Below are positions 7,341-32,820 of a stretch of DNA of 64,000 nt, one piece after another. The position numbers and the translations under genes were made by a program. Where the stretch lies: positions 1,760,001-1,824,000 of the forward strand of contig OY764159.1 in assembly GCA_963668175.1 (NCBI GenBank), in the 5' to 3' direction. Position 1 is the first letter of the stretch, and each line of letters begins with the position of its first letter. The DNA comes from Syntrophales bacterium. Its GTDB lineage: Bacteria; Desulfobacterota; Syntrophia; Syntrophales; PHBD01. The notes beneath the pieces are model-generated. The model saw only the letters and a list, made by a program, of their open reading frames with translations. It ran no database searches and was not told the origin of the DNA.

Positions 7341-7481
7341 TGTGGTTATTTTATGTCGTTATATCCGCCGTGATATCAGGATATTAAAATAGCGCACATT
7401 ACTCTTAATCAGTAGGTTGTCGGTTCGATCCCGGCAGGGCTCACCAAATATCGAGGGGTTGCGAAATTCGCAACCCCTTTT
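7341..7481 (+). repeat. att-like site 1: 60-bp arm, 3' half of tRNA-Lys(CTT) (7401-7446), hairpin
   Basis: ACTCTTAATCAGTAGGTTGTCGGTTCGATCCCGGCAGGGCTCACCA contains anticodon loop CT-CTT-AA, T-arm GGTTCGATCCC and ACCA end. No D-arm or 5' acceptor strand upstream. Hairpin AGGGGTTGCGAAATTCGCAACCCCT plus T-run follows. Confidence 0.9.
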
Positions 7482-7831
7482 GATTGATTGCTGACCCATT
7501 GATTTGATATCCTCATGGGTGAAGGAGTCTGCCGTCGGACGACTCCGTTCTCCAAAGATAATGAATTGTTATCACCTGCAAGTCTCTGCAATCAGTATTT
7601 GCTGCTGACTGTTTAAAACCTTGATCTCGATCCAACCCTTTATATCGTTCCCATCTTCATTTAGACCGGTTATTATAAAATAGGAGAAGAGAGTCTGCAC
7701 GCCGGAAGGCAGATTGATTCTGATTGTTTGATATTTGTGATCGTCTATGCTATCGGAGTGACATCGACATAGCTGTAATCATTCATAAACGCTTGTCCTA
7801 ATGATCTAAAACATAAGGTGGCTCACCGGCT

Positions 7832-9421
7832 ATGAAAAAAACTTTTCCCAATATCCATCCCATCATACGCATTCTGGCGGAGGAATCCATTAACGGTCTT
7901 TTCCTGGTCAAAGAGGGGAAATTCATTTATGTCAACACGAATATAGCCCGCTACACCCAGTATACGATAAAGGAACTCATCGGGGCGAAATCCGACAGCC
8001 TGATCCATCCCGATGACAAGGACCGGGTCAAGCAGAAGGCGCGGGAAATGCTCAAGGGAGAACATAAGGTTCCCTATGCCTACCGGATCATAACGAAAAA
8101 AGGGCAGGTTCGCTGGGTCATGGAAACGGTGTCGCCCTTTCCCATCGACGGGAATCGGTTGTTGCTGGGAAATACCATGGATGTGACGGATCGCATGGAG
8201 GCGGAAGAGCGGCTCCGGACATCCGAGAATCTTTACAGGACCATCTTTGAGACGACCGGCACGGCGATGCTCATCATGGGCGAAGATACCACCGTATTGA
8301 GGGTGAATACGGAATTCGAGAAACTCTCCGGTGCGGATAAGGATTACTGGGAAGGCAAGCGGAGCTGGCGCGAGTTCGTGCACAGGAAGGATTTCCGGAG
8401 AATGTTCCGGTATCACAATGACCGTCGCAACGATCCGGACTCGGCGCCACGGATATACGAATTCCATTTTCTGGATCGCCAGGGGAATTCCCGGCAAGTC
8501 ATCATGCTCGCCTCGATGATTCCCGGAACCAGACAAAGCGTCGCGGCCCTGGTGGACATCACGGATCGCATAGAGGCAGAGCGGAAGATTCAGGCATCGG
8601 AAAATCTCTATAGGGCCATTTTCGAAACAACGGGTACGGCCATGACGATTGTGGAAGAAGATATGACTGTATCGCTTGTGAATACGGAGTTTGAAAAGCT
8701 CAGCGGCGCCGGGAGAGACTTCTGGGAGGGGAAGCACAGTTGGAAGGAGTATGTCCATGAGGGCGATCTCTATAAGATGCTCCGCTATCATCAGAACCGG
8801 CGCATTGATCCCACATCGGCGCCCCGTAACTATGAATTCCGCATCGTGGATCGGCAGGGGAATATCCATGACGTTCTCAATACGATATCGGTGATTCCGG
8901 GTACCAAGCGCAGCGTATCTTCTTACATCGACATTACGGAACGGAAGAGATCCGAGGAATCTCTAATCAGGCGCGAGGCGGAACTCAGAGAAAAAACACG
9001 CGATCTGGAGGAGCTGAATGCCGCGCTTGGGGTTCTTCTCAAGCGGAGAGAGGAAGACCGGTCCGAACTCGAGAACAACGTGATCTCGGGTTTAAATAAG
9101 CTGGTAATGCCCTGCGTCGAAAAGCTCAAGAGAAGCGCCTTGAAGAAAAGCGATATGGCTTGCCTGAATATCATGGAATCGCACCTGAAAGATATGACCT
9201 CATCCTTCGTCCGGAAGCTGTCCTCGGAACATCTGAAATTGACCCCCCGTGAACTGCAAATGGCGGGGCTGATCAAGGAAGGGAAGACGACCAAAGAGAT
9301 CGCGGAATTCATGAATCTTTCGCTTGCTACAGTGGAGACCCACCGGCAGCATATTCGCGATAAACTTGACCTGAAAAGCAAGAAGGTGAACCTGAGAACT
9401 TTCCTTTCATCCCTGTCTTGA
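7832..9421 (+). CDS. Multi-PAS LuxR-family transcriptional regulator
   Basis: Three PAS/PAC repeats and C-terminal LTPRELQMA...GKTTKEIA...TVETHRQHIRDKL HTH. Confidence 0.92.
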   Translation: MKKTFPNIHPIIRILAEESINGLFLVKEGKFIYVNTNIARYTQYTIKELIGAKSDSLIHPDDKDRVKQKAREMLKGEHKVPYAYRIITKKGQVRWVMETVSPFPIDGNRLLLGNTMDVTDRMEAEERLRTSENLYRTIFETTGTAMLIMGEDTTVLRVNTEFEKLSGADKDYWEGKRSWREFVHRKDFRRMFRYHNDRRNDPDSAPRIYEFHFLDRQGNSRQVIMLASMIPGTRQSVAALVDITDRIEAERKIQASENLYRAIFETTGTAMTIVEEDMTVSLVNTEFEKLSGAGRDFWEGKHSWKEYVHEGDLYKMLRYHQNRRIDPTSAPRNYEFRIVDRQGNIHDVLNTISVIPGTKRSVSSYIDITERKRSEESLIRREAELREKTRDLEELNAALGVLLKRREEDRSELENNVISGLNKLVMPCVEKLKRSALKKSDMACLNIMESHLKDMTSSFVRKLSSEHLKLTPRELQMAGLIKEGKTTKEIAEFMNLSLATVETHRQHIRDKLDLKSKKVNLRTFLSSLS

Positions 9422-9819
9422 TCCACGCGACCGTCCGAAAAGGGTTGCTGCTATCCCCTTGATAAAAGTTACCGGTCTTATCCTTGCCCGGCCTGCGTGA
9501 ACATCTCAAGATAGATAGCAATATCGTCAATATATTCAATAGATGTACATTGTGCCGCCCTCCGTATGCTTCGCATCGAAGCGAATCCGGCCATTGGAAA
9601 ACCATGAGAAAATATACAGGGTCCATCATGGATTATCCAACGTTGCCATCCTCTGCAAACCTGTTATGCTCCACGCCGAAAAAGGTGGTTACTTCATTTC
9701 CGTCCAGTTCATTTACGAGATAACAATTTAATATAGCGACATCATGCCTGCACGGTGTTCAGCGACATCCCGGCAACGGGGATTGGTTTGCGAAACCGAG
9801 ACTTAAGGAGGATTGCATC

Positions 9820-10764
9820 ATGAAAGTATCCAAGGTCATGACGGCCAAGGAAGCGGTTTCCAGGTTTATCGATGACGGAATGACGGTGGCGATCGGCAGT
9901 TTCTTCCACACGATTGCTTATGACGTCACCCACGAAATCATCCGCCAGGGAAAGAAGCACCTCACCATTTGCGCGCCGAGTTTCAACGATCATGCCGATC
10001 AATTGATCGGGGCGGGATGCGTCGACCGGATCGAATCGTCCTACGTCTGGATGGAGGTATTCGGGCCTCTTTACAGCTTCAGGAGGGCGATTGAACAAGG
10101 GATCCCGCACAAAGTGGAAATGGAGGACTATACCAACTTTGCCATGACGGCGCGGCTGCTCGCCGGCGCGCTCGGCCTTCCCTATGTGCCGGTTCATTCC
10201 ATGAAGGGAAGCGATATGATGCGCTGTTCTTCCTGGAAAGGAGAAAACAAGGTCAGGCTGCTTAAGGATCCGTTCGGCAGCGGAGCGGAGCACGCCCTTG
10301 TCCCCGCCCTCACGCCGGATATCGGCTATATCCATGCGCAGCGAGGCGACGACGAAGGCAACTTCCAATTATGGGGAATTATGGGAGACGCTCCTTTCAG
10401 CATGAGGGCCTGCAAGCAGGTCATTGTCTCGGTTGAAGAGGTCGTGAGCCGTGACGTAATCGGACGCGATCCGAACCGGACCGTTATTCCGGGATATAAG
10501 GTCGTTGCCGTGATCGAAGCGCCCTTCGGCTCTCATCCCAAGAACTGTCAGGGCCACTACGGCGTCGACAAGGATTTTATCTTTAAATACATCCGCGAAT
10601 CCCGGACGGAAGAGGGTTGGAAAAAATTCATGGACGAATGGGTCTTCGGTGTGGCCGACCGATCGGAATATCTGAAGAAGTATGTCGATACGTTCGGGAT
10701 GGGGAAGTTCCTTAGTTTAAAAGCGAAGGATATGAGTTCCGGCTGTGTCAATTACGGATTTTAA
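9820..10764 (+). CDS. Family I CoA-transferase subunit A (glutaconate CoA-transferase A-like)
   Basis: Motifs DQLIGAGCV, AGALGLPY, YIHAQRGDDEGN, PFGSHP; AAGGAGG RBS. Confidence 0.88.
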   Translation: MKVSKVMTAKEAVSRFIDDGMTVAIGSFFHTIAYDVTHEIIRQGKKHLTICAPSFNDHADQLIGAGCVDRIESSYVWMEVFGPLYSFRRAIEQGIPHKVEMEDYTNFAMTARLLAGALGLPYVPVHSMKGSDMMRCSSWKGENKVRLLKDPFGSGAEHALVPALTPDIGYIHAQRGDDEGNFQLWGIMGDAPFSMRACKQVIVSVEEVVSRDVIGRDPNRTVIPGYKVVAVIEAPFGSHPKNCQGHYGVDKDFIFKYIRESRTEEGWKKFMDEWVFGVADRSEYLKKYVDTFGMGKFLSLKAKDMSSGCVNYGF

Positions 10765-10775
10765 GGGGGCGGATC

Positions 10776-11555
10776 ATGACTGAAAAATATACCGATTTTA
10801 CTCTGCAGGAACTGATGGCTGTCGCAGCGGCGAGGGAAATTCAAGACGGAGAAAAAGTCATCATCGGAACGGGACTCCCGCTCTTGGCGGCGTTTCTGGC
10901 TCAGAAAACCCATGCTCCCAATATGATGGCCATATACGAATCCGGGGCCATTGATTGCAGGCCCGCCGTTACGCCCTTGTCGGTAGCGGACGCCGTGCTG
11001 GTCCCGGGGGCCGCTATGCAGGGGGGGCTTATCGAAGCCCTCGGTATTGTCCATAAAGGAGAACTCGACGTGGGATTTCTTGGCGGTGCCCAGATAGACA
11101 AATACGGCAATCTCAACACGCATGTCATCGGCGATTATTACAGCCCGAAGGTACGCTTCGCGGGAAGCGGGGGATCGAACGATATCGGCGCCGGCTGCAA
11201 AAGAACGATCGTCATGATGCTCCACCAGAAGCAGCGTTTTCCCGAAAAAGTCGATTTCGTCACGACGCCGGGCTATTTCGGCGGACCCGGTCAGCGGGAA
11301 CAAATGGGCTTTCCGGGAGGCGGCCCCAGCGTCGTCGTTTCGACGATGGGCATTCTTCGCTTTCACCGGGAAACGAAAGAAATGTACCTCGAATCGTACC
11401 ATCCCGGGGTGGCCGTCGAACAGATCAAGGCCACGACCGGATGGGACCTTATGGTTGCCGAGAACGTCAGGGAAACGGAGCGGCCTTCGCCCGACCTGAT
11501 CAGGATTCTGCGGGAAGAGATCGATCCCACGGGGGTCTTTTTGAAGAAGCAATAG
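10776..11555 (+). CDS. Family I CoA-transferase subunit B (glutaconate CoA-transferase B-like)
   Basis: Motifs GTGLP, IYESG (catalytic Glu position), FLGGAQIDKYGNLN, GSGGSND. Confidence 0.9.
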   Translation: MTEKYTDFTLQELMAVAAAREIQDGEKVIIGTGLPLLAAFLAQKTHAPNMMAIYESGAIDCRPAVTPLSVADAVLVPGAAMQGGLIEALGIVHKGELDVGFLGGAQIDKYGNLNTHVIGDYYSPKVRFAGSGGSNDIGAGCKRTIVMMLHQKQRFPEKVDFVTTPGYFGGPGQREQMGFPGGGPSVVVSTMGILRFHRETKEMYLESYHPGVAVEQIKATTGWDLMVAENVRETERPSPDLIRILREEIDPTGVFLKKQ

Positions 11556-11564
11556 GAAGGAGGA

Positions 11565-12347
11565 ATGGAATCGTTCATGGAAGAAAAGAAGGACATCATC
11601 ATTTTCACGAGAAAAGACGGCGTGGCGGTTTTGACTTTTAACCGCCCCGAGTCTTTAAACGCGTTGAACAAGAATGTCAATTTAAGGCTCATCGAGTTTC
11701 TTCTCCAGGCGGAAGCGGACCCCGATATCAGGGTCGTCGTTCTGACGGGCTCGGGAAAGGCTTTCGTTGCCGGAGGCGATATCAAGGAGATGTATGGAAA
11801 GGATGCGATGGAAGCAAGGGCTTATGCCCTTCAGGCAAAGCGGGTTACGGATACGATCTGGAACCTGGGCAAACCCGTCATCGCTGCGATTAACGGTCTG
11901 TGTCTCGGCGGAGGGTTGGAGTATGCCATGGCTTGCGACCTGAGGACCGCTTCGGAGAACGCGAAGTTCGGGCAGCCCGAAATCAATATCGGGATCATGC
12001 CGGGAAGCGCGGGGACGCAGAGGCTTCCACGCCTGATCGGCATGACGAAGGCCAAGGAGTTCTGTTTTACCGGCGTCATGTTCGACGCAAGAACGGCGTT
12101 CGATCTCGGTTTGGTCAACTATGTCTACCCCGCTGCCTCCTTCATGGAAGAGACGCTCGCGCTGGCAGGACAAATCGCTGCCAAGTCGGCACCGGCCCTC
12201 AAGCTGATCAAGTCGGCGATCAACCACGGGGCGGATGCGGACATCGAGACCGGATCGCTCTTTGAAATCGACTGCTTCGGCCTTTGCTTCTCGACGCAGG
12301 AGCAGAAAGACAGCATGAGGGCCTTTGTGGAAAAGAGCGGAAAATAA
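11565..12347 (+). CDS. Enoyl-CoA hydratase (crotonase)
   Basis: Motifs AFVAGGDI, GGGLE, FGQPEINIGIMPG with both catalytic Glu positions. Confidence 0.94.
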   Translation: MESFMEEKKDIIIFTRKDGVAVLTFNRPESLNALNKNVNLRLIEFLLQAEADPDIRVVVLTGSGKAFVAGGDIKEMYGKDAMEARAYALQAKRVTDTIWNLGKPVIAAINGLCLGGGLEYAMACDLRTASENAKFGQPEINIGIMPGSAGTQRLPRLIGMTKAKEFCFTGVMFDARTAFDLGLVNYVYPAASFMEETLALAGQIAAKSAPALKLIKSAINHGADADIETGSLFEIDCFGLCFSTQEQKDSMRAFVEKSGK

Positions 12348-12371
12348 GGCGGAGAAAGGAGAAAAAGAGCA

Positions 12372-13229
12372 ATGTCGGAAAAGATAACCGTGATCGGTGC
12401 GGGCACCATGGGTGCCGGAATTGCGCAGATCGCGATGGAAGCTGGATTTGAAGTCGCCCTGGTCGATACGGAGCAGAAATTCGTCGACCGGGGCGTGGAG
12501 GGCATCGGAAAGTTTCTGGAACGCAAAATCGCCAAAGGGACGTACACGCCGGAACAGGGCAAAGCTATAGAAGGACGGCTGACGGGTACGACGGACATGA
12601 AGACGGGCGTCGAAGATGCCGCCATGGTTGTCGAGGCGGTTTTCGAGAATATCGATCTCAAAAAGAAGATCTTCCAAACGCTCGATGCCTTGTGTCCGGA
12701 AGAAACGATCCTTGCCAGCAACACCTCGACCCTGAGCATATCGCTCATTTCATCGGCGACCAGCAAACCGTCCCGCGTCATCGGGACCCATTATTTCAGC
12801 CCGGTGCCGCTTATGCGTCTGGTGGAAGTCATCAGGGGCGATAAAACGTCCGAGGCGGCGACGATGAAGACCGTGGAGCTCTGCAAGAGGTTCGGCAAGA
12901 CCCCCATCGTAGTCAAGGATATTCCGGGATTCATCGTCAACCGGTTCCTTTGTCTTCTCTATAACGAAGCGGCCAACATGGTCGGAAAGGGTCTGGCCAC
13001 GGCGGAAGACATCGATACCGCTCTCAAACTCGGCTGCAACTGGCCCATGGGCGTCGCCGAGATCATGGACATGGCCGGCGTGGACGTGGTCCTTTACGCC
13101 ATGCGCGCGATGTATTCCATGACGGGGGAAGAGCGTTACAAACCTTCACCCCTTCTGGAGGCGATGGTGGCGGAAAACAGACTGGGAAGGAAGACGGGCA
13201 AGGGATTTTACACAGGAGGGAAGTCATGA
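12372..13229 (+). CDS. 3-hydroxyacyl(butyryl)-CoA dehydrogenase
   Basis: Motifs GAGTMGAG, EAVFE, ASNTS, THYFSPVP, PGFIVNR. Confidence 0.94.
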   Translation: MSEKITVIGAGTMGAGIAQIAMEAGFEVALVDTEQKFVDRGVEGIGKFLERKIAKGTYTPEQGKAIEGRLTGTTDMKTGVEDAAMVVEAVFENIDLKKKIFQTLDALCPEETILASNTSTLSISLISSATSKPSRVIGTHYFSPVPLMRLVEVIRGDKTSEAATMKTVELCKRFGKTPIVVKDIPGFIVNRFLCLLYNEAANMVGKGLATAEDIDTALKLGCNWPMGVAEIMDMAGVDVVLYAMRAMYSMTGEERYKPSPLLEAMVAENRLGRKTGKGFYTGGKS

Positions 13230-14446
13230 AGAAGAATGATGTTGTCATCGTAAGCGCCGTCCGGACGCCCTTCGGGCGATACGACGGCGTTCTGAAAAAT
13301 GTTTTAAGCATGGATCTCGGTGTCCTGGCGGTGAAGGAAGTCATCGCGAAGATCGGTCTCGACGCGTCGCAGGTGGACGAACTCTATTACGGCACATGCA
13401 TTCCGGCGGAATACGCCATATACACAAACGTGCCGGCGCGGCAGATCACGCTGCTTGCGGGGTTTCCGGAAAAGAACATTTCCCTCACGATCGACCGGGC
13501 GTGCTGCTCCTCGATGACGGCGCTCCGCCTGGGCTGCCGCGCCATCAAGTCCGGCGATGCCGAGGTTGTGATTGCAGCCGGAGCGGAGAATATGGGCAAT
13601 ACGCCGCTTATCGCAGGCGCCGCGAAGGCCCGCTGGGGAGCGCGCCTGGGACCGATCGAACTGGAGGACGTGCTTTTTGAGCTGGGATACGGACGTAAAG
13701 GCTTTGCGCCCGTCGCGACCGACGCGGGCTTCGTGGCCGAGGAATTCGGCGTGACCAGACAGATGCAGGACGAATGGGCACTGCAAAGCCATGAGCGGTA
13801 CAACCAAGCCTTCAAGGATGGGAAGTTCAAAGTGGGCGAAGAGCTGATGCGGATCGATATCCCCCAGAAAAAAGCCCCCGTCGTACTCGAACGTGACGAA
13901 TCGCCCCGGGAGAACCTCAGCATGGATAAGCTGGCGGCCCTGAAGACCGTTTACGGCAGCCCCACGGTCACCGCCGGCAATGCGCCGGGGCTGAACTCCG
14001 GAGCGTCGGCCATGGTCCTGATGAGCCGGGAAAAAGCGGAGTCCCTGAATCTCAAGCCTATGGCTGAAATCGTTGCCTGCGAAAGCGGGGCAGGGACCCC
14101 GAAGTATATGGCGTGCGTTCCCGCCGAAACCATTGAGAAGATGTTCGCAAAATCGAATAGGACCATTGACGATGTCGATCTCGTTGAAATCAACGAAGCC
14201 TTTGCGGCCGTGACCCTGGTTTCGCTCAAGATGCTTGCCGGCGGCGATCCGAAGAAACTCGATGAGCTGAAAGACAAGACCAATGTCAACGGCGGGGCGA
14301 TCGCCATCGGTCATCCGGTCGGTGCGAGCGGCGCCAGGATCACCATGACCATGATGTACGAACTCATGAGGCGGGGCGGAGGCACGGGCGTGGCCGCCAT
14401 CTGCGGAGGACTGTCACAGGGCGAAGCGCTCATGCTCAGGGTATAA
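13226..14446 (+). CDS. Thiolase
   Basis: Motifs SAVRTPFG, RACCSS, NEAF, GHPVGASG, ICGG; ATGA overlap with the upstream gene. Confidence 0.93.
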   Translation: MKKNDVVIVSAVRTPFGRYDGVLKNVLSMDLGVLAVKEVIAKIGLDASQVDELYYGTCIPAEYAIYTNVPARQITLLAGFPEKNISLTIDRACCSSMTALRLGCRAIKSGDAEVVIAAGAENMGNTPLIAGAAKARWGARLGPIELEDVLFELGYGRKGFAPVATDAGFVAEEFGVTRQMQDEWALQSHERYNQAFKDGKFKVGEELMRIDIPQKKAPVVLERDESPRENLSMDKLAALKTVYGSPTVTAGNAPGLNSGASAMVLMSREKAESLNLKPMAEIVACESGAGTPKYMACVPAETIEKMFAKSNRTIDDVDLVEINEAFAAVTLVSLKMLAGGDPKKLDELKDKTNVNGGAIAIGHPVGASGARITMTMMYELMRRGGGTGVAAICGGLSQGEALMLRV

Positions 14447-14458
14447 TCATTAAAGGAG

Positions 14459-24030: not shown

Positions 24031-24059
24031 CTGCTTGCGGAGACGGTTTGTATGGAAAA

Positions 24060-24957: not shown

Positions 24958-26217
24958 ATGGCGGTGAACGTCATCATGCCTCAACTGGGTCTGACGATGA
25001 CCGAGGGCATGGTTACCAAGTGGCATAAGGCGGCCGGCGAAAAGATTGCGAAGGGCGAAGTCCTGGTGGAGATCATGACCGAAAAGATTACCCAGCAGAT
25101 TGAATCGCCCGCAGACGGCGTCGTTTTGGCCATTCTGGTTCCGGAAGGGGCAACAGTGCCGGTCAAAGCTTTATTGGCCGTCATCGGCGAAGAAGGAGAA
25201 CGGGTGGATCATACTGCGCCCACCGGAAATAATGAAGACGAAGGGCCGAACGGGCAATCGAATGTCGCTGCCGTCAAGGCGTCGCCGGCGGCCAAAAAAC
25301 TGGCCCGCGAAAGCGGTGTCGATCTGACGCTGGTGACAAGTACGGGCAGCGGCGGGCGGCTGACGGAAAAGGATGTGCTGCGGTACCTGGACGGGCAGAA
25401 AAAGAAAATTCGTGCAACGCCCCTGGCGGCGAAAATCGCCGTAGAACAGAACATCGATCTGTCCGGGATAAGCAAGGAAGGCAGAATCGCCAAAGCGGAC
25501 GTATTGGCGGCAGTCGCGAAAGCGGAAGGCCCGTCACCCGGGGCGGAGGAGGCGTCATCCGTGCCCCTCGCCGGGACGCGGAAAATAATTGCAGACCGGA
25601 TGAGTTTGAGCTGGCATACGGCGCCGCATGTGAATCTGACCGTGTCGGTTGACATGTCGTCCGTCGTCGGTCTGAATAGGAACACCAAAGCCGAGAAGAA
25701 ATTTTCCGTTACGGAAATGATGGTCGCCGTTGCCGCCCGGGCATTGTCCGAATACGGCGACATCAATGCCAGTCTCGTGGACGGCAAGGTGATGCGGTAC
25801 AAGACCGTCAATATCGGTGTGGCCGTCGCCCTCGATAAGGGATTGATCGTCCCGGTCATCAGGGATGCCCAGAGAAAAGGCTTGCCCGCGATCCGGAGGG
25901 AAATCGCCGATCTCGCCGCCAGGGCGCGGCAGGGGGGCTTGCTGCCCGAGGAAGTGACCGGCGGGACGTTCACGATAACCAATCTCGGCATGTTCGGCGT
26001 GGACCATTTCGCCCCGATCATCAATCCGCCGGAAAGCGCCATCCTGGCCGTGTGCCGCGTCGTCGACCGGCCGGTGGTCGTGGACGGCGCCGTCGAAATC
26101 CGGCCGATGGCGAACCTGTGCCTGTCCTTCGATCACCGTCTGATCGACGGCGCTCTGGCCGCCAGGTTCATGGCGCACGTCCGCGAATTGATGGAACAGC
26201 CGCTGTTGCTGCTCTAG
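24958..26217 (+). CDS. acoC: Dihydrolipoamide acyltransferase E2 (AcoC-like)
   Basis: Lipoyl domain (TEKI), two subunit-binding repeats (ASPAAKKLA, ATPLAAKIA) and DHRLIDG catalytic motif. Confidence 0.88.
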   Translation: MAVNVIMPQLGLTMTEGMVTKWHKAAGEKIAKGEVLVEIMTEKITQQIESPADGVVLAILVPEGATVPVKALLAVIGEEGERVDHTAPTGNNEDEGPNGQSNVAAVKASPAAKKLARESGVDLTLVTSTGSGGRLTEKDVLRYLDGQKKKIRATPLAAKIAVEQNIDLSGISKEGRIAKADVLAAVAKAEGPSPGAEEASSVPLAGTRKIIADRMSLSWHTAPHVNLTVSVDMSSVVGLNRNTKAEKKFSVTEMMVAVAARALSEYGDINASLVDGKVMRYKTVNIGVAVALDKGLIVPVIRDAQRKGLPAIRREIADLAARARQGGLLPEEVTGGTFTITNLGMFGVDHFAPIINPPESAILAVCRVVDRPVVVDGAVEIRPMANLCLSFDHRLIDGALAARFMAHVRELMEQPLLLL

Positions 26218-26269
26218 GCCGATGAAGGAACATATCCTGCGATCGGTAATAAAATGATGAGGTAGGCGA

Positions 26270-27670
26270 ATGAAAAGAGTCGTCGTCATAGGCGGAGGCC
26301 CTGCGGGCTACGTGTCGGCCATCCGCGCCGCGCAACTGGGGGCGGAAGTCCATCTGGTGGAAAACGGCCGGTTGGGCGGCACATGTCTGAATGTCGGCTG
26401 TATTCCCACCAAGGTGCTGCTCCATTCGGCCGATCTGTACCGCCTGGTCAGGTGCGGTAAAATTGCCGGTCTGAGTGCGGAAAAAGCGGATATGGACTGG
26501 CCGGAATTGCTGCGCCACAAGCAGGCGGTAATCGCCCGATTGGTCGGGGGCGTCGAAGGCTTGTTGAAGGCGAACAAGGTCGAGGTCCATCGGGGCCTCG
26601 CTTCCCTCATGGACGGCCGCACGGTGGAGATCGAGAACGTCCGGCCGCAGAGGCTGACCGCCGATGCCGTTGTCCTGGCAATGGGATCGGTGCCGCTCAA
26701 GTTGCATTTTCCCGGAGCCGATCTGCCCGAGGTGATAGACAGTACGGCAGCGCTGGAACTGCGGCATGTGCCGAGCTCGCTGGTCATCATCGGCGGCGGC
26801 GTCTTGGGCGTGGAGTTCGGGGCCCTGTTCAGCGCCTTGGGCTCCCAAGTCACGATCGTCGAAATGCTTCCGGAAATTCTGCCCGGGCTGGACAGGAAGA
26901 TTGCCGCCGCCGTGAAGCGGGAGATGGAAGGCCGCGGCATCAGCTTCCTCACCGGCAGCCGGGTTGCCGGTGTAAGTAAGGGTTCCACAGGCCTGACGGT
27001 CAAGGCCGTTGGGGGCGATACCGCTCGTGATCTGTCCGCCGATTATGTGCTGGTGGCGGCAGGTAGAGTGCCCGCAACGGAATATATCGGCCTGGAAAAG
27101 GCGGGCATAGAAATGCGTGGTGCAAAGATCGCCGTAGACGAAAATTTCCGTACCAATGTCCCTGGTATTTATGCCGCGGGCGACTGCAACGGTGAACTCA
27201 TGCTGGCTCATGCGGCTTCCGCCCAGGGGATCGCAGCCGTGGAGCATGCACTGACGGGGCATGCTTCCTATCATAAAAACACCATCCCGTCCTGCATCTA
27301 TACTTCCCCGGAAGTCGCCTCCGTGGGATGGACAGAAGAAGAGGCGGATCGTCAGGGATTGCAATATAAAGCCGGCGTCTTTCCGCTGGCGGCGAACGGA
27401 AAGGCCTGCATAGAAGACGGTTCGTCGGGACTCATCAAGATCGTGGCCGGGGCCAGGTACGGCGAAATTCTCGGGGTGCATATTTACGGTCCCCGTGCCA
27501 CGGAGCTGATCGCCGAGGCGGCTTTGGCCATCCGCCTGGAAGCGACGGCGGACGAGCTGGTTTCCACGATTCATCCCCACCCGACGATCAGCGAAGCGCT
27601 GGGGGAGGCGGCGCTTGCGGTGAACGGCAGCAGCATTCATTATTTCCGCAGGCCGTCATCCTTTCAATAG
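26270..27670 (+). CDS. lpdA: Dihydrolipoamide dehydrogenase E3
   Basis: Motifs GGGPAGY, GGTCLNVGCIPTK, HPHPTISE. Confidence 0.95.
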   Translation: MKRVVVIGGGPAGYVSAIRAAQLGAEVHLVENGRLGGTCLNVGCIPTKVLLHSADLYRLVRCGKIAGLSAEKADMDWPELLRHKQAVIARLVGGVEGLLKANKVEVHRGLASLMDGRTVEIENVRPQRLTADAVVLAMGSVPLKLHFPGADLPEVIDSTAALELRHVPSSLVIIGGGVLGVEFGALFSALGSQVTIVEMLPEILPGLDRKIAAAVKREMEGRGISFLTGSRVAGVSKGSTGLTVKAVGGDTARDLSADYVLVAAGRVPATEYIGLEKAGIEMRGAKIAVDENFRTNVPGIYAAGDCNGELMLAHAASAQGIAAVEHALTGHASYHKNTIPSCIYTSPEVASVGWTEEEADRQGLQYKAGVFPLAANGKACIEDGSSGLIKIVAGARYGEILGVHIYGPRATELIAEAALAIRLEATADELVSTIHPHPTISEALGEAALAVNGSSIHYFRRPSSFQ

Positions 27671-27677
27671 GTAAACT

Positions 27678-28352
27678 ATGGACGGAAACAACGGCAGGAA
27701 CAGACGATGCGCCTTCCAGCGGGAAGGGGTCGTAACGTACGAGCACGGCCTGGAACTGCAGGAAACCGCGCGCGGTCTGGTGGAGAAGGGTGAGTGGGAC
27801 GGGATTTTGCTCCTGCTTGAGCATGCGCCTGTGATCACCGTCGGGAGCGGCGGCGGCCTGGAGCATCTGCGTACCGATGCGGATACGCTCGCGGGAAGGG
27901 GCATTGCCGTCCTCCGCTCCGAACGGGGCGGTAATATCACCTGTCACAATCCGGGACAGCTCGTCGGCTACCCGGTCCTCAATCTGAGTCTCTGGCGCCG
28001 CGATTTATCCTGGTACAGGGAATCCCTGGAAGAGACGCTGATCAGGACCCTCGCACGTTTTGGAATCGTCTCCGGGCGAAAGGCCCGTTACAACGGCGTG
28101 TGGGTGGAGGACAGTAAAATCGCCGCCATCGGCGTGACGGTCCGGAACTGGATCACGAAGCACGGCTTTGCCCTGAACGTCCAAAACGATCTGGCCTTGT
28201 TTCAGGACATCGTCCCCTGCGGGATTCGCGATTATGGAGTTACAAGTCTGGTCGAAACGGCCGGCAGGCCGATGGGAATGGACGAAACGGCCGCTGCCTT
28301 GGTTGAGGAATTCTCTTTCGTCTTTCGATGCGCCGTAAGGGAATTGCAATGA
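27678..28352 (+). CDS. lipB: Lipoyl(octanoyl) transferase
   Basis: Motifs LEHAPVIT, RGGNITCHNPGQ, KIAAIG, HGFALNV, IVPCG. Confidence 0.93.
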   Translation: MDGNNGRNRRCAFQREGVVTYEHGLELQETARGLVEKGEWDGILLLLEHAPVITVGSGGGLEHLRTDADTLAGRGIAVLRSERGGNITCHNPGQLVGYPVLNLSLWRRDLSWYRESLEETLIRTLARFGIVSGRKARYNGVWVEDSKIAAIGVTVRNWITKHGFALNVQNDLALFQDIVPCGIRDYGVTSLVETAGRPMGMDETAAALVEEFSFVFRCAVRELQ

Positions 28353-29263
28353 TCCGAAATGATGGGGCAAAGACACCGGCGATCGATACGAAAAAGCCCG
28401 CGTGGCTGGTTCAGCGGTTCCGCGGCGGCGACGCGTTCAACGGCATGGTCGATCTCCTCACGGATCTCGGTTTGAATACGGTCTGCCAGAGCGCCTCCTG
28501 CCCCAATATCGGGGAATGCTTTAATGCCGGGACGGCCACTTTTTTAATTCTCGGTGGCCTGTGTACAAGGAACTGCCGGTTCTGTGCCGTGCCGAAGGGA
28601 CAGCCGAGCTCACCCGATCCGGACGAGCCGGGAAAAGTCGCGCAGGCGGCCCGGGTCGCGGGTATCAGGCATGCCGTTGTCACGTCCGTTACGCGCGACG
28701 ACCTTGACGATGGCGGTGCGGACCAGTTTGTCCGTTGCATTCAACGCCTCCGCGAGACGGTTCCGGAGACCTCCGTTGAGGTCCTGACGCCCGATTTTCG
28801 AGGTGACAGAAAGGCGTTGCGGGCCGTTCTGGCCGCTGGACTGGATGTGTTCAATCACAATGTGGAGACGGTACCGCGACTCTATCCGTTGGTGAGACCG
28901 GGAGCCGATTACCATCGTTCCCTGCGAATGTTGCGCGAAGCGGCCCGTCGCATCAGGGTTGTCAAGAGTGGGATCATGGTCGGCATGGGAGAGGACGAGA
29001 AAGAGGTGCGAGGGGTCTTTCGCGATCTCGTCGCCGCCGGTGTCGCGGTCCTCACCATCGGACAATATCTGAGACCTTCCCCCGGGCAAATGGAGGTGGT
29101 CGAATACGTCCATCCCGAGCGGTTCCGTTCATACGGGGAGATGGCGCTGGCGGCCGGGTTCAAGTCCGTGGCGGCCGGGCCGCTGGTGCGCAGTTCTTAT
29201 CATGCGGAACGGTTATTTGGAAACGGGATACCCTGCCCGATACCGCCGGCCGACGCCCGGTAA
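28349..29263 (+). CDS. lipA: Lipoyl synthase
   Basis: CQSASCPNIGEC auxiliary cluster motif, CTRNCRFC radical-SAM motif, VRSSY; ATGA overlap with lipB. Confidence 0.95.
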   Translation: MIRNDGAKTPAIDTKKPAWLVQRFRGGDAFNGMVDLLTDLGLNTVCQSASCPNIGECFNAGTATFLILGGLCTRNCRFCAVPKGQPSSPDPDEPGKVAQAARVAGIRHAVVTSVTRDDLDDGGADQFVRCIQRLRETVPETSVEVLTPDFRGDRKALRAVLAAGLDVFNHNVETVPRLYPLVRPGADYHRSLRMLREAARRIRVVKSGIMVGMGEDEKEVRGVFRDLVAAGVAVLTIGQYLRPSPGQMEVVEYVHPERFRSYGEMALAAGFKSVAAGPLVRSSYHAERLFGNGIPCPIPPADAR

Positions 29264-29440
29264 CACATGAGAAATATCTTTCCTGGGAAGGGCTTCATCC
29301 GTCCGGAAGCCTTATCTTGTCATCCCGACTATCCCGTTTTGATGATTCCCTCCCGTATCGCAACAAAGAGCCGGAAATTACAGATAGGCCATGGTTATCA
29401 AAAGCGTGAATATAAAGAAATAAGTTGAATAAGATTAAAA

Positions 29441-29469
29441 TTGACAACGGTCTCGTAATTGTTTAGTAT
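29441..29469 (+). promoter_or_regulatory. sigma70-type promoter of the XRE-cupin gene
   Basis: TTGACA-17 bp-TAGTAT. Confidence 0.7.
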
Positions 29470-29511
29470 TCATAACCACATACATTAAATCAGACGACGA
29501 CATGAGGAAAT

Positions 29512-30111
29512 ATGATCGAAAAACAGATTGCCGACAGCATGCGAAAGATCCGTAATTCCAAGGGAATGACGCTGAAACAGCTGGGCGAGAAAATCGGCAT
29601 TTCTCCCGGCATGCTTTCTCGCCTGGAAAACAATCAGTCGTCGCCTCCCATTGCGACGCTGGCGAAGATCGCCCAGGGACTGGACGTTCCCATCAGCGTT
29701 TTTTTCGAGGGCAACGGTGACGACACGGATCTCAAATATATCGTGACACGCAGCGACCGGCGCCGCCAGGTGATACGCCGCGGCAGCGATATCGGATTCA
29801 TTTATTACGCCTTCAACACCGCCAGGGACCTTCACCTCATTGAAGCCTTCGTGATGGAGCATCCCCCGCTCCGAAAGAAAATGAAAGTTCTGTTCGATCA
29901 CCCGGGGGAGGAGCTTATTCTGGTATTAAAGGGTACCATAGAACTGGTCTACGGCTATGAGACGATACGCCTGGAGGAGGGCGATGCCATCCACTTCGAT
30001 CCCTCGGTTCCCCATCGCGCCCAGAACGTGGGTAAGGAGAAGTCGGAATGCCTGGTGGTCATTGCCGGTCAAAAGGGCTATTTCAAACGCAACAACGCAA
30101 CATCCGCATAA
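29512..30111 (+). CDS. XRE-family HTH regulator with C-terminal cupin domain
   Basis: HTH TLKQLGEKIGIS...LSRLENN; cupin motifs HPGEE and GDAIHFD...PH. Confidence 0.92.
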   Translation: MIEKQIADSMRKIRNSKGMTLKQLGEKIGISPGMLSRLENNQSSPPIATLAKIAQGLDVPISVFFEGNGDDTDLKYIVTRSDRRRQVIRRGSDIGFIYYAFNTARDLHLIEAFVMEHPPLRKKMKVLFDHPGEELILVLKGTIELVYGYETIRLEEGDAIHFDPSVPHRAQNVGKEKSECLVVIAGQKGYFKRNNATSA

Positions 30112-30363
30112 CGTTATTTTCCCTGCCCGTCTCCCTCCGGAATGTCTTCCGGAGCTTTGTTGCTCTATGCGCGGCGACGCGATCCTTTCCGGTTGGCCCG
30201 AAAGCGGGGCATTGCCTCCTGCAGTTGGTTGATATCGGGGGTAGGTCCATGCCGGACGTGTGCCCGATCAGTGCCTCATCCCTCTAAATAGCCTCTTCAC
30301 AGTGAAGGCGGAATGTCAAACCTGAAAGGTGTCGGTCTTGTTTTTGATGCCGACAAAATAAAC

Positions 30364-30392
30364 TTGACATCGGTAAAAATGTTTACTATTAT
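30364..30392 (+). promoter_or_regulatory. sigma70-type promoter upstream of the acoR-like gene
   Basis: TTGACA-17 bp-TATTAT. Confidence 0.7.
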
Positions 30393-30598
30393 GCAACTAA
30401 ATACGTACAACGAAACATTTCAACCTGCCTGCAACAGCCGCTCCGCTCTTGACGCCAGATAACCCAGCCTTCGTCGGCTGGTCACAACGCAGCGCATGAA
30501 CTCCCGGCATTCCGGAAGCATAACCGGAATGCGACGAAGAACAGCGCGGCGAATAAACATCTTCATTCGTTTGTTTACTGAATAGTCGGAGGTGAACC

Positions 30599-32566
30599 AT
30601 GGTACGCGAACTTGCCACGAGTATGCCCGATGACTTTGCCGGATTCAACAGATCGGAAGCGAATACCTTTAGACCTTCCACCCTGAGACCCATTATCATG
30701 GATTCCTGGAGAAGGTCGAGGGAGTATGGGGTCTATCGGGAGGAGTGCGTCAGCAGCGTCGTTCTGACTGCCGGGGAATTGGAACTCCTGCTGCGTAAAA
30801 ATTCCGAACTTATAGACGCCGCGATGCCTTTCATACACAATCTATACAGGCTTGTCGCCAGTTCGGGATTTGTGGTTATTCTTGTCGACAGGGAAGGATA
30901 CATTCTGGAGGTTGTCGGAGCCGTCGATCGGCTGGGTATCGCCGAGAATATCCATTATGTCAAAGGAATGAAATGGACCGAGGAACTTGTCGGCACGACC
31001 GCGATCGGACTTGCCCTTCGGGAGCGCCAGCCCATTCAAGTGGCGGGGGATGAGCACTATTGCTGCAGCTTCAGGAACTGGGCTTGCTCGGCGGCTCCGA
31101 TAGTCGATGAAAACAACGATCTTCTCGGCGTGTTGAGCGTCACAGGTTTGAAAAAGTATGTCCACTGCCACACCCTGGGCATGGCGGTGTCGGCGGCCAC
31201 CGCGATGACCAACATCCTGCGGGAAAGAAAAATCCAGAAAAAATTGGAGCAATCGGCCCAGATACATTCCACCATCGTTCATTCCATTTCCGACGGTCTT
31301 CTCATGCTGGACAAGAACGGTATCGTTACCTTCATCAACCCCACCGGGGCGCGAATACTGGGTGTGAAAAGGGATGAAGCCACGGGCAGACATATTTCAT
31401 CGATTGTCGATTTCAAACCCGTCGTGCTCCAGGTATTGGAGAGGGGCCAGGGGTATGCCGACAGGGAATTCTTTATCGAAACCAGGAAAGGCGTCGTGCA
31501 TTTCATCAAGACGGCCATTCCGATCAGGGACAAGGACGGCAACCTGGACGGGGTCATCGATATCTTCCGGGAGATCAAGAAGGTGCGCCAGTTGGTCAAT
31601 CGGATGGTGGGGTCGTCCGCTAAATTCTCTTTCGACGATATCCTGGGTTCGAGCGCGGCCGTCAAGGAAGTCGTTCGCATGGGGAAAATCGCCGCCAACA
31701 GCTTCGCCAATTTGCTGATCCAGGGGGAAAGCGGCACCGGCAAGGAGATGATTGCCCAGGCCGTCCATAATGCAAGCGCGCGGGCGGAAGGGCCGTTCAT
31801 CGCGATCAATTGCGGAGCTATCCCGCGGGATCTCGTCGAAAGCGAATTGTTCGGCTACGAGGAAGGGGCGTTTACCGGGGCGAGGCATAACGGCCGGCCG
31901 GGAAAATTTGAATTGGCCCACGGAGGAACCATATTCCTGGACGAAATAGGCGAGACGCCCGTGGACATCCAGGTAAAACTCCTGAGGGTGCTTCAGGATA
32001 AACGGATCCTGCGCGTCGGGGGGCAAAGGTATATCGATGTCGATGTGCGTGTTATCGCCGCGACGAATCTCGATTTGCATAAGGAAGTCAAAGAGGGGAA
32101 TTTCCGGAGCGATCTCTATTATCGTTTGAATGTGCTTCAGTTGATCGTGCCTCCCTTGCGAGAACGCGAGGGGGACATCGTCCAGTTGGCGGAATTTTTC
32201 TTTCGGAAAATGTGCGACCAGTTCCATGTGCCTTATAAGCGGGTTGCCAGGGAGGTATGGTCGGCGCTGGAAAAATACTCCTGGCCCGGCAATGTCCGGG
32301 AACTGGAAAACTGCATCGAAAGGGCGGTCAGCGTTTCGGAGGGCGACGAGATCCTCCCTACGCATCTCGCTCACAGCGTCTGGAACAGCGAAGACGAACC
32401 CGGCTCCGCCTCTTCATCGCTCAAGGCCATGGAGAAAACGACCATTATGAATGCAATCCGGAAAACAAAAGGCAATATAAGCCGGGCTTCCAAATTGCTG
32501 GGCATAGGGCGCAACACCCTGTACGACAAGATGCGCGAATATGCGATCAGGCCGTCGAGGGCATAA
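30599..32566 (+). CDS. acoR: sigma54-dependent activator, GAF-PAS-AAA+-HTH (AcoR-like)
   Basis: GAF (SWRRS, GTTAIG...CSAAPI), [22 protein letters not shown] and Fis-type HTH. Confidence 0.85.
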
Positions 32567-32671
32567 ACATCGACCGAGCAATTTCATAATCGTAAGTTAC
32601 GTCACATTTATAAAGTGCACCGGTCCATCTCTTGGACGAGAACTCACGCCGTCATTATCCCTTCGCTGACC

Positions 32672-32820
32672 TGTGGTCGTCTTTTGTCGTTAAATGCATT
32701 TATATTACAGGATTTTCAAATAGCGCACATTACGCTTAATCGGCAGGTTGCCGGTTCGATCCCGACAGGGCTTACGAGAAAATCGAAAGGCGTTTCGGAG
32801 CGTTGGTGGAATGCCTTTTC
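32672..32820 (+). repeat. att-like site 3 (degenerate tRNA-Lys 3' half at 32732-32777)
   Basis: Core matches site 1 at 39/46 nt by manual count. Same arm at identical spacing; different downstream hairpin (GAAAGGCGTTTC...GAATGCCTTTTC). Confidence 0.85.

What the first reader, a model, noticed from the sequence alone, without database searches (positions are those of the whole stretch)
7341..32820. Tandem array of integrase-free catabolic cassettes delimited by three tRNA-Lys(CTT)-derived att sites
Seen: three direct repeats, each a 60-bp arm ending AAATAGCGCACATT fused, without indels, to the 46-nt 3' half of a tRNA-Lys(CTT). Cores are at 7401-7446, 17576-17621 and 32732-32777; copies 2 and 3 match copy 1 at 40/46 and 39/46. 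The repeats fall exactly between functional modules of about 10 kb and 15 kb, each with its own regulator, transporter(s) and enzymes. No integrase, transposase, relaxase or phage gene is visible in the window. Established: tyrosine-integrase elements often insert at tRNA anticodon loops, duplicate the 3' half, and can stack in tandem. Inference: this is an integron-like platform where operon-sized catabolic cassettes carry only an att site and are stacked at tRNA-Lys by an integrase acting in trans. An intact tRNA-Lys(CTT), and possibly the integrase, is predicted to the left of the window.
Basis: partly seen in the sequence, partly recalled or inferred. Interest (0 to 1): 0.9.

Follow-up and report, generated by a model that had tools for sequence, protein, structure and literature searches.

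The report
tRNA-Lys half-repeats separating catabolic operon blocks
Three copies of a short sequence ending in the back half of a lysine tRNA gene separate operon-sized nutrient-breakdown gene blocks in a syntrophic bacterium; they are most likely scars left by DNA islands that inserted one after another at a tRNA gene, an arrangement already described in other bacteria.

Summary
Three co-oriented copies of a 62-bp arm fused without indels to a 46-nt tRNA-Lys(CTT) 3' half lie at 7339-7446, 17514-17621 and 32670-32777. Nothing else like them is in the window.

Conservation is blockwise:
- left flank: random;
- block L: 14-17/18;
- spacer: 11-15/27;
- a 14-mer next to the core: 14/14 in all three pairs;
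- core: 37-40/46.

Copies 1 and 2 also share a 37-nt terminator hairpin (32/37). Copy 3 does not (5-6/37). That is the pattern expected for two internal att sites and one terminal att site of a tandem island array.

None of 148 translated frames matched a recombinase, transposase, relaxase or phage family. The blocks do not differ in composition from the flank.

Best reading, confidence 0.5: integrase-less islands accreted at a tRNA-Lys(CTT) gene. This is a known kind: cis-mobilizable elements, and the tandem ssrA islands of Dehalococcoides.

The predicted intact tRNA, any trans integrase and present-day mobility could not be tested. The source genome and its closest relatives were out of reach. 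The "integron-like" label is not supported as a separate category.

The parts
7339..7400 (+). Arm of copy 1. Block L is 7342-7359 (GTGGTTATTTTATGTCGT), followed by a variable 27-nt spacer, then the invariant block R at 7387-7400 (AAATAGCGCACATT).
7401..7446 (+). Core 1: 46-nt tRNA-Lys(CTT) 3' half, from the anticodon loop to an intact ACCA.
7447..7483 (+). Post-core segment shared with copy 2 (32/37). It holds the hairpin GGGGTTGCGAAATTCGCAACCCC (7455-7477) followed by TTTT, an intrinsic-terminator-like site.
   Evidence: The simple terminator scan did not list it. Its twin in copy 2 was listed.
17514..17575 (+). Arm of copy 2. Block L is 17517-17534 and block R is 17562-17575.
17576..17621 (+). 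Core 2: tRNA-Lys(CTT) 3' half, 40/46 to core 1. The loop is CTCTTGA and the 3' end is ACCG.
17622..17664 (+). Post-core segment of copy 2: a 12-pair hairpin (17628-17654) followed by a T run.
32670..32731 (+). Arm of copy 3. Block L is 32673-32690 (14-15/18 to the other copies) and block R is 32718-32731 (14/14).
32732..32777 (+). Core 3: the most diverged tRNA-Lys(CTT) 3' half (39/46 and 37/46). It has G at loop position 33, a C-A mismatch in the T stem, and no CCA.
32786..32827 (+). A different hairpin (32786-32818) followed by TCTGATTTT. It is unrelated to the post-core of copies 1 and 2 (5-6/37). I read it as the original chromosomal flank and terminator of the target tRNA gene; this is inference.
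1..7338 (+). Block 0, cut by the window start. Genes: thiolase, acyl-CoA dehydrogenase, 4-hydroxybutyrate CoA-transferase-like, MFS transporter, Usp, 4-hydroxybutyryl-CoA dehydratase (AbfD).
7484..17513 (+). Block 1 (10,175 bp from repeat to repeat). Genes: PAS-LuxR regulator, CoA-transferase A and B, enoyl-CoA hydratase, 3-hydroxyacyl-CoA dehydrogenase, thiolase, acyl-CoA dehydrogenase, MFS transporter, and a 139-aa ORF with no Pfam family.
17665..32669 (+). Block 2 (15,156 bp from repeat to repeat). Genes: 2-oxoacid dehydrogenase E1 alpha and beta, E2, E3, LipB, LipA, ketol-acid reductoisomerase, two MFS transporters, a methyltransferase, an XRE-cupin regulator and a sigma-54 activator.
32828..41980 (-). 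Right flank. Gene orientation switches to the minus strand here: Zn-ribbon, nitrilase-family, GntR, DHOD-like, DUF2848, 2-oxoacid:ferredoxin oxidoreductase and ferredoxin genes. There is no repeat copy from here to the window end.

Best explanation
The three repeats are recombination-site junctions left by site-specific integration of related integrative elements into a tRNA-Lys(CTT) gene, with the crossover at or next to the anticodon loop.

Each element's attP carried three things: a ~62-bp arm with two conserved protein-binding blocks, a tRNA 3' half that regenerates the target gene, and a terminator for it. Successive integrations stacked the elements in tandem. Copies 1 and 2 are internal hybrid sites: the arm of the left element, then the core and terminator supplied by the attP of the right element. 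Copy 3 is the terminal attR: an arm, then the displaced original tRNA 3' half with its own chromosomal terminator and flank.

The blocks now carry no integration or transfer genes. They are therefore cis-mobilizable-element-like islands (CIMEs), each a complete catabolic regulon.

Shown: the anatomy, the blockwise conservation, and the absence of recombinase genes in 64 kb.
Inferred: the recombinational origin, the order of events, and the existence of an intact tRNA-Lys(CTT) further left.
Not shown: whether the sites can still be used by an integrase encoded elsewhere.
For: (1) The core is a canonical tRNA-Lys(CTT) 3' half beginning at the anticodon loop. Of 3919 catalogued tDNA islands, 3760 have a 3' tDNA fragment and 2083 have an anticodon-centred attP site (Islander paper, passages read).

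(2) There are three direct, co-oriented copies, confined to one stretch. No further copy lies in the 31 kb to the right or the 7.3 kb to the left.

(3) Similarity has sharp edges and is blockwise:
- left flank 14-17/40;
- block L 14-17/18;
- spacer 11-15/27;
- block R 14/14 in all three pairs;
- core 37-40/46.
So these are constrained sites of diverged elements, not recent duplicates.

(4) Post-core sequence is shared by copies 1 and 2 (32/37) but not by copy 3 (6/37 and 5/37). This is the internal-site versus terminal-site signature.

(5) Copy 3 is the most decayed: G at position 33, a C-A mismatch in the T stem, no CCA. That is expected for the oldest displaced fragment.

(6) The repeats (84% over 141 nt between copies 1 and 2) are far more alike than the paralogous genes beside them (MFS 60%, acyl-CoA dehydrogenase 46%, thiolase 37% amino-acid identity). 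They were therefore not simply co-duplicated with the operons.

(7) The only true orthologue of block 1 in 78 related loci is L001 (regulator 68%, CoA-transferase subunits 80 and 81%). Its upstream gene fragment has no homologue in the window.

(8) There is a direct precedent. Dehalococcoides has tandem islands downstream of ssrA, bounded by 28 direct repeats. A conserved 15-bp non-ssrA motif lies just upstream of each repeat. Fifteen of the islands lack an integration module and were proposed to be CIMEs (passages read).

(9) The end of a Mycobacteroides prophage record carries a similar tRNA-Lys-like 45-nt core.
Against: - No integrase, excisionase, relaxase, transposase or phage family appeared in any of 148 translated frames. 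These were 66 ORFs at E<=1e-5 and 82 stop-to-stop frames from intergenic regions at E<=0.01. There is not even debris next to the cores.
- No intact tRNA is in the window.
- The blocks cannot be told apart in composition from the right flank: GC 54-57%, tetranucleotide r 0.87-0.97.
- Block 1's regulator belongs to a family expanded within Syntrophales, so the cargo looks native.
- No independent instance of the element was found. The exact pattern gave 0 hits in 185,579 species-representative genomes. blastn gave 0 hits in 78 related loci totalling 1.17 Mb. nhmmer gave two hits, at E=0.48 and 1.6, in stretches that look protein-coding to me. The plasmid collection gave 0 hits. The phage collection gave only generic tRNA matches.
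- Each unit sits just after the last gene of a + strand operon, co-oriented with it and ending in a terminator. A purely transcriptional role would explain that too.
- Presence/absence polymorphism, the decisive signature of mobility, could not be examined.
Confidence: 0.5

Rival explanations
1. The unit is a functional intergenic module derived from a tRNA gene fragment. It would serve as an operon-end terminator or insulator, or encode a small RNA of roughly 85 nt running from block R to the terminator. It would have been placed at operon ends by ordinary recombination, with no integrase involved.
For: - All three units lie 16-212 nt after the last gene of a + strand operon, co-oriented with it.
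- Each ends in a hairpin followed by a T-rich tail.
- Conservation is blockwise, with an invariant 14-mer and a near-random spacer, which implies selection on the unit itself.
- No mobility genes are present.
- Composition looks native.
Against: - Only 3 of the window's 15 intergenic regions of at least 120 bp carry it, all in one stretch. Other operon ends in the right 31 kb lack it.
- No sigma-70-like promoter was called inside any arm.
- The T stem is broken by a double change to C-A in copy 3.
- The predicted arm hairpin of copy 1 is not kept in copy 3: z-score -4.25 versus -0.86.
- There is no Rfam family.
- This reading does not explain why the unit starts exactly at a tRNA anticodon loop, nor why copy 3 alone has a different downstream hairpin.
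Confidence: 0.2
2. One reading: an active, integron-like platform. Operon-sized cassettes that carry only an att site are inserted, excised and shuffled at tRNA-Lys by a dedicated integrase encoded elsewhere.
For: - The evidence is the same as for the best explanation.
- The cassettes are also clean: only 326-385 bp of non-coding DNA lies between each terminator and the next gene, with no pseudogene debris.
- Block R is invariant in all three copies although the spacer beside it is nearly randomised. That suggests the sites are still under selection.
Against: - No integrase is seen.
- No circular junction, empty site or variation in cassette order could be examined.
- Integron hallmarks are absent (see the membership test).
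Confidence: 0.12
3. The repeats are neutral relics: copies of a 5'-degenerate tRNA-Lys pseudogene that were carried along when an ancestral thiolase / acyl-CoA dehydrogenase / MFS operon was duplicated locally, possibly homogenised later by gene conversion. They would have no present function.
For: - Blocks 0 and 1 end with paralogous genes in the same order: thiolase, acyl-CoA dehydrogenase, MFS.
- In a gap-free alignment with a real tRNA-Lys, block R matches the D-stem region at 6 of 14 positions by my count. The unit could therefore be a whole, degenerate tRNA gene.
- The genome does keep some paralogues nearly identical: four AbfD forms at 99% identity or more.
Against: - The gene paralogues share only 37-60% amino-acid identity, while the repeat is 84% identical in DNA.
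- Copy 3 follows a sigma-54 activator and has no paralogous context.
- Blockwise conservation next to a near-random spacer is not neutral decay.
- Gene conversion would homogenise the spacer as well.
Confidence: 0.1

Closest known systems
Cis-mobilizable elements (CIMEs) and tandem accretion of ICE/IME-derived islands. Examples are the ICESt1/ICESt3-related islands of Streptococcus thermophilus and the composite elements at the 3' end of a tRNA-Lys gene in Streptococcus agalactiae (passages read in PMC5704250 and PMC6323972).
   Same: These are islands that lack integration and transfer genes but are still bounded by att sites, stacked in tandem at a tRNA gene with chimeric internal sites. In one described case the target is likewise a tRNA-Lys gene.
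   Different: - In the described cases a cognate ICE, IME or integrase is known in the same or related strains, and excision or cis-mobilisation has been shown. Neither is available here.
- The host here is a Syntrophales anaerobe.
- The cargo is whole catabolic regulons.
- The conserved site starts at the anticodon loop, so 46 nt of tRNA are repeated, rather than only at the extreme 3' end.
Dehalococcoides ssrA genomic islands (PMC3146451, passages read).
   Same: - An anaerobe with multiple tandem islands downstream of a tDNA, bounded by direct repeats of the gene's 3' end.
- A conserved short motif that does not match the target gene lies directly upstream of each repeat.
- The cargo is catabolic or respiratory genes.
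- 15 islands lack any integration module and were proposed to be CIMEs.
   Different: - The target there is the tmRNA gene with a 20-bp repeat.
- Many of those islands still carry a characteristic integration module.
- Strain-to-strain variation was documented there.
Canonical tRNA/tmRNA-gene genomic islands with a tyrosine integrase (Islander principle, PMC4383910, passages read).
   Same: The signature is a displaced 3' tDNA fragment, co-oriented, with an anticodon-centred site.
   Different: - Islander requires an integrase inside each island and a full tDNA at one end. Neither is present in the window.
- Arrays of three or more were rare there: 4 among 2168 genomes under that strict definition.
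Integrons.
   Same: The only shared idea is an array of integrase-less units, each carrying one recombination site.
   Different: - No intI, attI or Pc was seen.
- The units are 10-15 kb multi-operon blocks with their own regulators, not mostly promoterless single-gene cassettes.
- The sites are tRNA-derived direct repeats, not attC hairpins.
The integron features listed here are from my own knowledge.

Membership tests
tRNA-gene-targeting integrative island (tyrosine-integrase type) | A displaced fragment of the target tRNA gene, co-oriented, marks the island end. | tested here: met
   There are three co-oriented 46-nt tRNA-Lys(CTT) 3' halves.
tRNA-gene-targeting integrative island (tyrosine-integrase type) | An intact, regenerated tRNA gene lies at the other end. 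| not testable with these tools
   ARAGORN finds 0 tRNA genes in the window. The array runs off the left end, and the source genome is in no searchable DNA collection.
tRNA-gene-targeting integrative island (tyrosine-integrase type) | An integrase gene lies inside the island. | tested here: not met
   0 of 66 ORFs and 0 of 82 stop-to-stop frames from intergenic regions match a recombinase family.
tRNA-gene-targeting integrative island (tyrosine-integrase type) | Presence/absence polymorphism among related genomes, or an empty site. | tested here: inconclusive
   In 78 related loci only L001 carries an orthologue of block 1. It has a different left neighbour and no repeat in its 561 bp of upstream sequence, but at about 72% DNA identity this says little. 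Matching contig lengths among protein cluster mates was inconclusive.
Cis-mobilizable element (CIME) / accretion array | Integration and transfer genes are lost while the flanking att sites are retained. | tested here: met
   Blocks 1 and 2 are each bounded by arm-plus-core sites and contain no mobility genes. That these sites are att sites is inferred from their anatomy.
Cis-mobilizable element (CIME) / accretion array | A related ICE or IME with a cognate integrase exists; excision or cis-mobilisation is demonstrable. | not testable with these tools
   This needs the whole genome, related genomes and experiments. No element with the same arm was found anywhere.
Integron | An intI integrase gene with an adjacent attI site and Pc promoter. 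| tested here: not met
   There is no recombinase family in the window. The region left of the window was not seen.
Integron | Cassettes of one or a few, mostly promoterless, ORFs, each ending in an attC site made of imperfect inverted repeats. | tested here: not met
   The units are 10.2 and 15.2 kb, with 9 and 12 genes including their own regulators. The sites are tRNA-derived direct repeats. The arm hairpin is not conserved in copy 3.
Functional tRNA gene | A complete cloverleaf, with acceptor and anticodon stems paired. | tested here: not met
   ARAGORN finds none. Reading the sequence, no 5' acceptor strand is present, and the 5 nt before the loop (CATTA) do not pair with TCAGT.
Any Rfam RNA family | A score at or above the family's gathering threshold. 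| tested here: not met
   There are 0 hits at gathering score. The best E-value-mode hits score 21 bits or less against thresholds of 39 or more, and are driven by the terminator hairpin.

The most novel reading that the evidence does not exclude
In Syntrophales, whole catabolic regulons of 10-15 kb exist as minimal cassettes. Their only mobility determinant is a ~145-bp site: two conserved arm blocks, a tRNA-Lys 3' half and a terminator. A chromosomally encoded integrase acting in trans inserts, excises and reshuffles them at tRNA-Lys(CTT). This would be an operon-scale counterpart of an integron that lets syntrophs swap substrate modules.
Probability: 0.12. Interest if true: 0.7.

Novelty: new member of a known kind. 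Interest (0 to 1): 0.35.

Why it matters
If the best reading is right, this shows tandem accretion of integrase-less islands at a tRNA gene in a syntrophic deltaproteobacterial lineage (Syntrophales). The cargo would be complete fatty-acid and branched-chain 2-oxoacid catabolic regulons. That would point to site-specific recombination as a route by which syntrophs assemble their substrate range.

The sites are short and well defined, so they give a concrete handle. The same arm-plus-core can be searched for in complete genomes, to find the intact tRNA, the cognate integrase and strain-to-strain differences in cassette content.

It does not open a new category. The same architecture is documented for Streptococcus CIMEs and for the Dehalococcoides ssrA islands.

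Tried and rejected
**Searches for the element elsewhere**
- An exact-pattern scan of 185,579 representative genomes for block R + N21 + T loop gave 0 hits.
- The plasmid collection gave 0 hits for the unit. For an 11-kb stretch it gave one irrelevant 80-bp hit.
- The phage collection gave 16 records, all generic tRNA-gene matches or a prophage end. None covers the arm beyond 11 nt.
- blastn, nhmmer and a mismatch-tolerant motif search of the unit against 78 related loci (1.17 Mb) gave nothing real. The two nhmmer hits lie in stretches that look protein-coding to me.
- A 14-nt match to block L upstream of the L001 regulator is on the opposite strand with E=0.24, so I treat it as chance.
- ARAGORN on 60 of the 78 loci found 6 tRNA genes, none of them Lys. 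The 18 loci left out are mostly archaeal or Syntrophomonas-type records. No native Syntrophales tRNA-Lys was therefore available for comparison.

**Attempts to classify the unit**
- Rfam gave no family.
- By eye I looked in block L for sigma-54, sigma-70 and ECF promoter motifs, and for IHF and Xer/dif-like sites. There were no convincing matches, and the scans called no promoter inside an arm.
- From recollection I suspected the element might be one of the multicopy sequences described in Geobacter metallireducens. The passages I read mention nothing like it.

**Contig-length matching**
- I tried to infer synteny in close relatives from the 'longest contig' values of protein hits and cluster mates.
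- Block-1 proteins co-occur on contigs of 16,776 and 17,727 bp. Right-flank proteins co-occur on a contig of 29,540 bp. No block-0 or block-2 protein was seen on those contigs.
- The clustering is visibly incomplete: four AbfD forms at 99% identity or more are not merged. I therefore draw no conclusion from this.

**Left unchecked**
The DNA of the closest relatives (regulator 80-92% identical) stayed unchecked.

Full report
**Observation**

The three repeats exist exactly where stated. A MAFFT alignment shows no indel from the start of the arm to the end of the tRNA-like core.

The 14-mer AAATAGCGCACATT occurs three times, always on the + strand and always directly 5' of a core. With up to 2 mismatches allowed, shuffles gave a mean of 0.46 matches and 1 of 100 reached 3. 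The T-arm/acceptor 20-mer also occurs three times, and 0 of 100 shuffles reached 3.

The repeat finder returns one three-copy family of 141 nt (100/84/62% identity) with spacings of 10,175 and 15,156 bp. No other non-coding repeat of note was reported. A profile built from the three copies finds no fourth, degenerate copy anywhere in the 64 kb.

**Is the core a tRNA half?**

ARAGORN calls no tRNA in the window. Rfam gives nothing at gathering score. In E-value mode it gives only weak hits driven by the terminator.

Read directly, the 46-mer has the layout of a tRNA 3' half:
- anticodon loop CTCTTAA;
- a 5-nt stem strand;
- a 5-nt variable loop;
- T arm GTCGG-TTCGATC-CCGGC;
- a 7-nt acceptor strand;
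- discriminator A;
- CCA, intact in copy 1, CCG in copy 2, CGA in copy 3.

A search of the phage collection hit only tRNA genes and one prophage end: 16 records, none covering more than 41% of the unit. One hit is a tRNA-Lys gene of Xanthomonas phage X1. ARAGORN reads its anticodon as ctt, and it aligns colinearly with the cores at 82.6% over 46 nt.

In that gap-free alignment the invariant 14-mer matches the tRNA's D-stem region at 6 of 14 positions by my count. The five bases before the loop cannot pair with the stem strand after it. tRNA-likeness therefore fades out inside the 14-mer and is certainly lost 5' of it.

**Anatomy of the unit**

Sub-block identities:

| Segment | Identity between copies |
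|---|---|
| 40 nt left of the arm | 14-17/40 (random) |
| Block L (GTGGTYRTYTTWTGTCGT) | 14-17/18 |
| 27-nt spacer | 11-15/27 (near random) |
| Block R (the 14-mer) | 14/14 in all three pairs |
| Core | 37-40/46 |
| Next 37 nt, copies 1 vs 2 | 32/37 |
| Next 37 nt, copy 3 vs copies 1 and 2 | 6/37 and 5/37 |
| Further downstream | random |

- The 37 nt shared by copies 1 and 2 hold a 12-pair hairpin followed by a T run.
- Copy 3 is followed by a different hairpin and a T-rich tail.
- Copy 3 is also the most degenerate: G at loop position 33, a double change that turns the T-stem U-G pair into a C-A mismatch, and no CCA.

**Context**

Pfam on 66 ORFs shows a purely catabolic region.
- Left of copy 1: thiolase, acyl-CoA dehydrogenase, a 4-hydroxybutyrate CoA-transferase-like enzyme, an MFS transporter, Usp and 4-hydroxybutyryl-CoA dehydratase.
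- Between copies 1 and 2: a PAS-LuxR regulator, CoA-transferase A and B, the four beta-oxidation enzymes, an MFS transporter and a 139-aa ORF.
- Between copies 2 and 3: a 2-oxoacid dehydrogenase complex (E1 alpha and beta, E2, E3) with LipA and LipB, ketol-acid reductoisomerase, two MFS transporters, a methyltransferase, an XRE-cupin regulator and a sigma-54 activator.
- Right of copy 3: gene orientation flips and the repeats stop.

No recombinase, transposase, relaxase or phage family appears in the 66 ORFs. None appears either in 82 stop-to-stop frames drawn from the intergenic regions, including the 326-650 bp after each core.

The blocks cannot be distinguished from the right flank by composition: GC 54-57%, tetranucleotide r 0.87-0.97.

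**Organism and relatives**

The PAS-LuxR regulator's named relatives are Syntrophales, Syntrophaceae and Syntrophus MAG proteins. The closest are 92, 85 and 80% identical, on short contigs. The window's own proteins lie on a 4,567,304-bp contig.

That genome is not in genome contigs:
- The exact pattern of block R plus the T loop gave 0 hits in 185,579 genomes.
- No locus of that contig length came back from the protein-guided scan.

None contains the unit.

Only L001 carries a true orthologue of block 1: regulator 68%, CoA-transferase subunits 80 and 81%. Its upstream gene fragment has no counterpart in the window, and its 561 bp of upstream DNA lacks the unit. At about 72% DNA identity this is weak evidence that block 1 sits in different surroundings elsewhere.

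**Interpretation**

The most economical reading is site-specific integration at a tRNA-Lys(CTT) gene.
- A displaced 3' tDNA fragment beginning at the anticodon loop is the standard island signature. Of 3919 Islander islands, 3760 carry a 3' fragment and 2083 have anticodon-centred sites (passages read).
- In a tandem array, internal sites should combine the arm of the element on their left with the core and downstream arm supplied by the attP of the element on their right.
- The last site should combine an arm with the original chromosomal tRNA end and flank.
- That is the observed pattern: copies 1 and 2 share post-core sequence, while copy 3 has its own and is the most decayed.

The near-random spacer between two well-kept blocks shows that the arms are diverged, constrained sites rather than fresh duplicates. 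The repeats are also much more alike than the paralogous genes next to them (MFS 60%, acyl-CoA dehydrogenase 46%, thiolase 37% amino-acid identity). This argues against simple co-duplication with the operons.

The terminator inside the unit makes sense for an attP that must regenerate a working tRNA gene.

**What is not shown**
- That an intact tRNA-Lys(CTT) lies to the left.
- That any integrase recognises these sites.
- That the blocks vary among strains.
- That they can still move.

The complete lack of mobility genes or their debris, the native-looking composition, and the position of every unit just after the last gene of a co-oriented operon keep a transcriptional or RNA role alive as a rival. 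Against that rival:
- Only 3 of the 15 intergenic regions of at least 120 bp carry the unit.
- No promoter was called inside an arm.
- The T stem and the arm hairpin are not maintained in copy 3.

**Comparison with what is known**

Integrase-less islands that keep their att sites and are stacked by accretion at a tRNA gene are called cis-mobilizable elements. They include composites at a tRNA-Lys gene in Streptococcus agalactiae (passages read in PMC5704250 and PMC6323972).

The closest published picture is Dehalococcoides (PMC3146451, passages read):
- tandem islands downstream of ssrA, bounded by 28 direct repeats;
- a conserved 15-bp motif that does not match ssrA, directly upstream of each repeat;
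- 15 islands without any integration module, proposed to be CIMEs.

The present locus matches that architecture feature for feature. It differs in target (tRNA-Lys), host (Syntrophales) and cargo. Integron membership fails on every defining feature tested. I found no paper on such elements in Syntrophus or Syntrophales: one full-text search, whose 10 listed papers all had no occurrence of 'Syntrophus'.

**Verdict**

The att-site reading is the best supported, at confidence 0.5, but it rests on anatomy alone. If it is correct, the locus is a new member of a known kind. The bolder claim of an active, trans-served cassette platform is not excluded (about 0.12) and would need the whole genome, relatives and junction evidence.

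Noticed in passing
window 5676-7127 (+): The 4-hydroxybutyryl-CoA dehydratase (AbfD) gene just left of copy 1 has three further near-identical forms on a contig of the same length, 4,567,304 bp. They differ at 1, 2 and 5 residues; one differs in its last three residues. The source genome therefore appears to hold four abfD paralogues at 99% identity or more. The neighbouring Usp has no such twin: its next best hit is 84% identical.
   Followed up: partly
window 5607-7127 (+): The longest ORF for AbfD is 506 aa from a TTG start, but the deposited protein is 483 aa and starts at MALKTPEE. The real start is 23 codons downstream.
   Followed up: yes
window 1-7127 versus 13226-17030: Blocks 0 and 1 end with old paralogues in the same order: thiolase (37% amino-acid identity), acyl-CoA dehydrogenase (46%) and MFS transporter (60%). 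This points to an ancient duplication of a beta-oxidation and transport operon.
   Followed up: yes
window 7832-9421 (+); loci L001-L043: The PAS-LuxR regulator belongs to a family strongly expanded in Syntrophales MAGs, with several copies per genome. It is usually followed by a 4-hydroxybutyrate CoA-transferase-like gene and beta-oxidation genes. The protein contains an internal duplication of its PAS modules.
   Followed up: partly
window 33283-33519 (-): A small Zn_ribbon_8 gene (E=3e-11) is the first gene right of copy 3. It lies on the minus strand at the far end of the convergent nitrilase/GntR/DHOD-like cluster.
   Followed up: no
window 40428-40820 (-): A 4Fe-4S dicluster ferredoxin-like frame lies upstream of the minus-strand 2-oxoacid:ferredoxin oxidoreductase genes. 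It was missing from my first ORF list.
   Followed up: no
window 19160-20134 and 20034-21563 (+): The E1-beta ORF and the following MFS ORF (GTG start) overlap by 101 nt as listed. The MFS start is probably further downstream.
   Followed up: no
window 41981-64000: The right half of the window holds further self-contained catabolic units, and none carries the repeat. They include:
- GntR, a Glu/Leu-type dehydrogenase and D-glutamate cyclase;
- a Liv-type ABC transporter;
- a second 2-oxoacid:ferredoxin oxidoreductase;
- an oxaloacetate-decarboxylase beta subunit;
- a second sigma-54 activator;
- a second CoA-transferase.
   Followed up: partly
window 7339-7344, 17514-17519, 32667-32679: The left edge of each arm carries a short palindrome: ACATGT in copy 1, CACGTG in copy 2, and GACC..GGTC in copy 3. 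A T-rich run follows. In copy 3 the terminator scan lists it as a weak terminator-like site.
   Followed up: no
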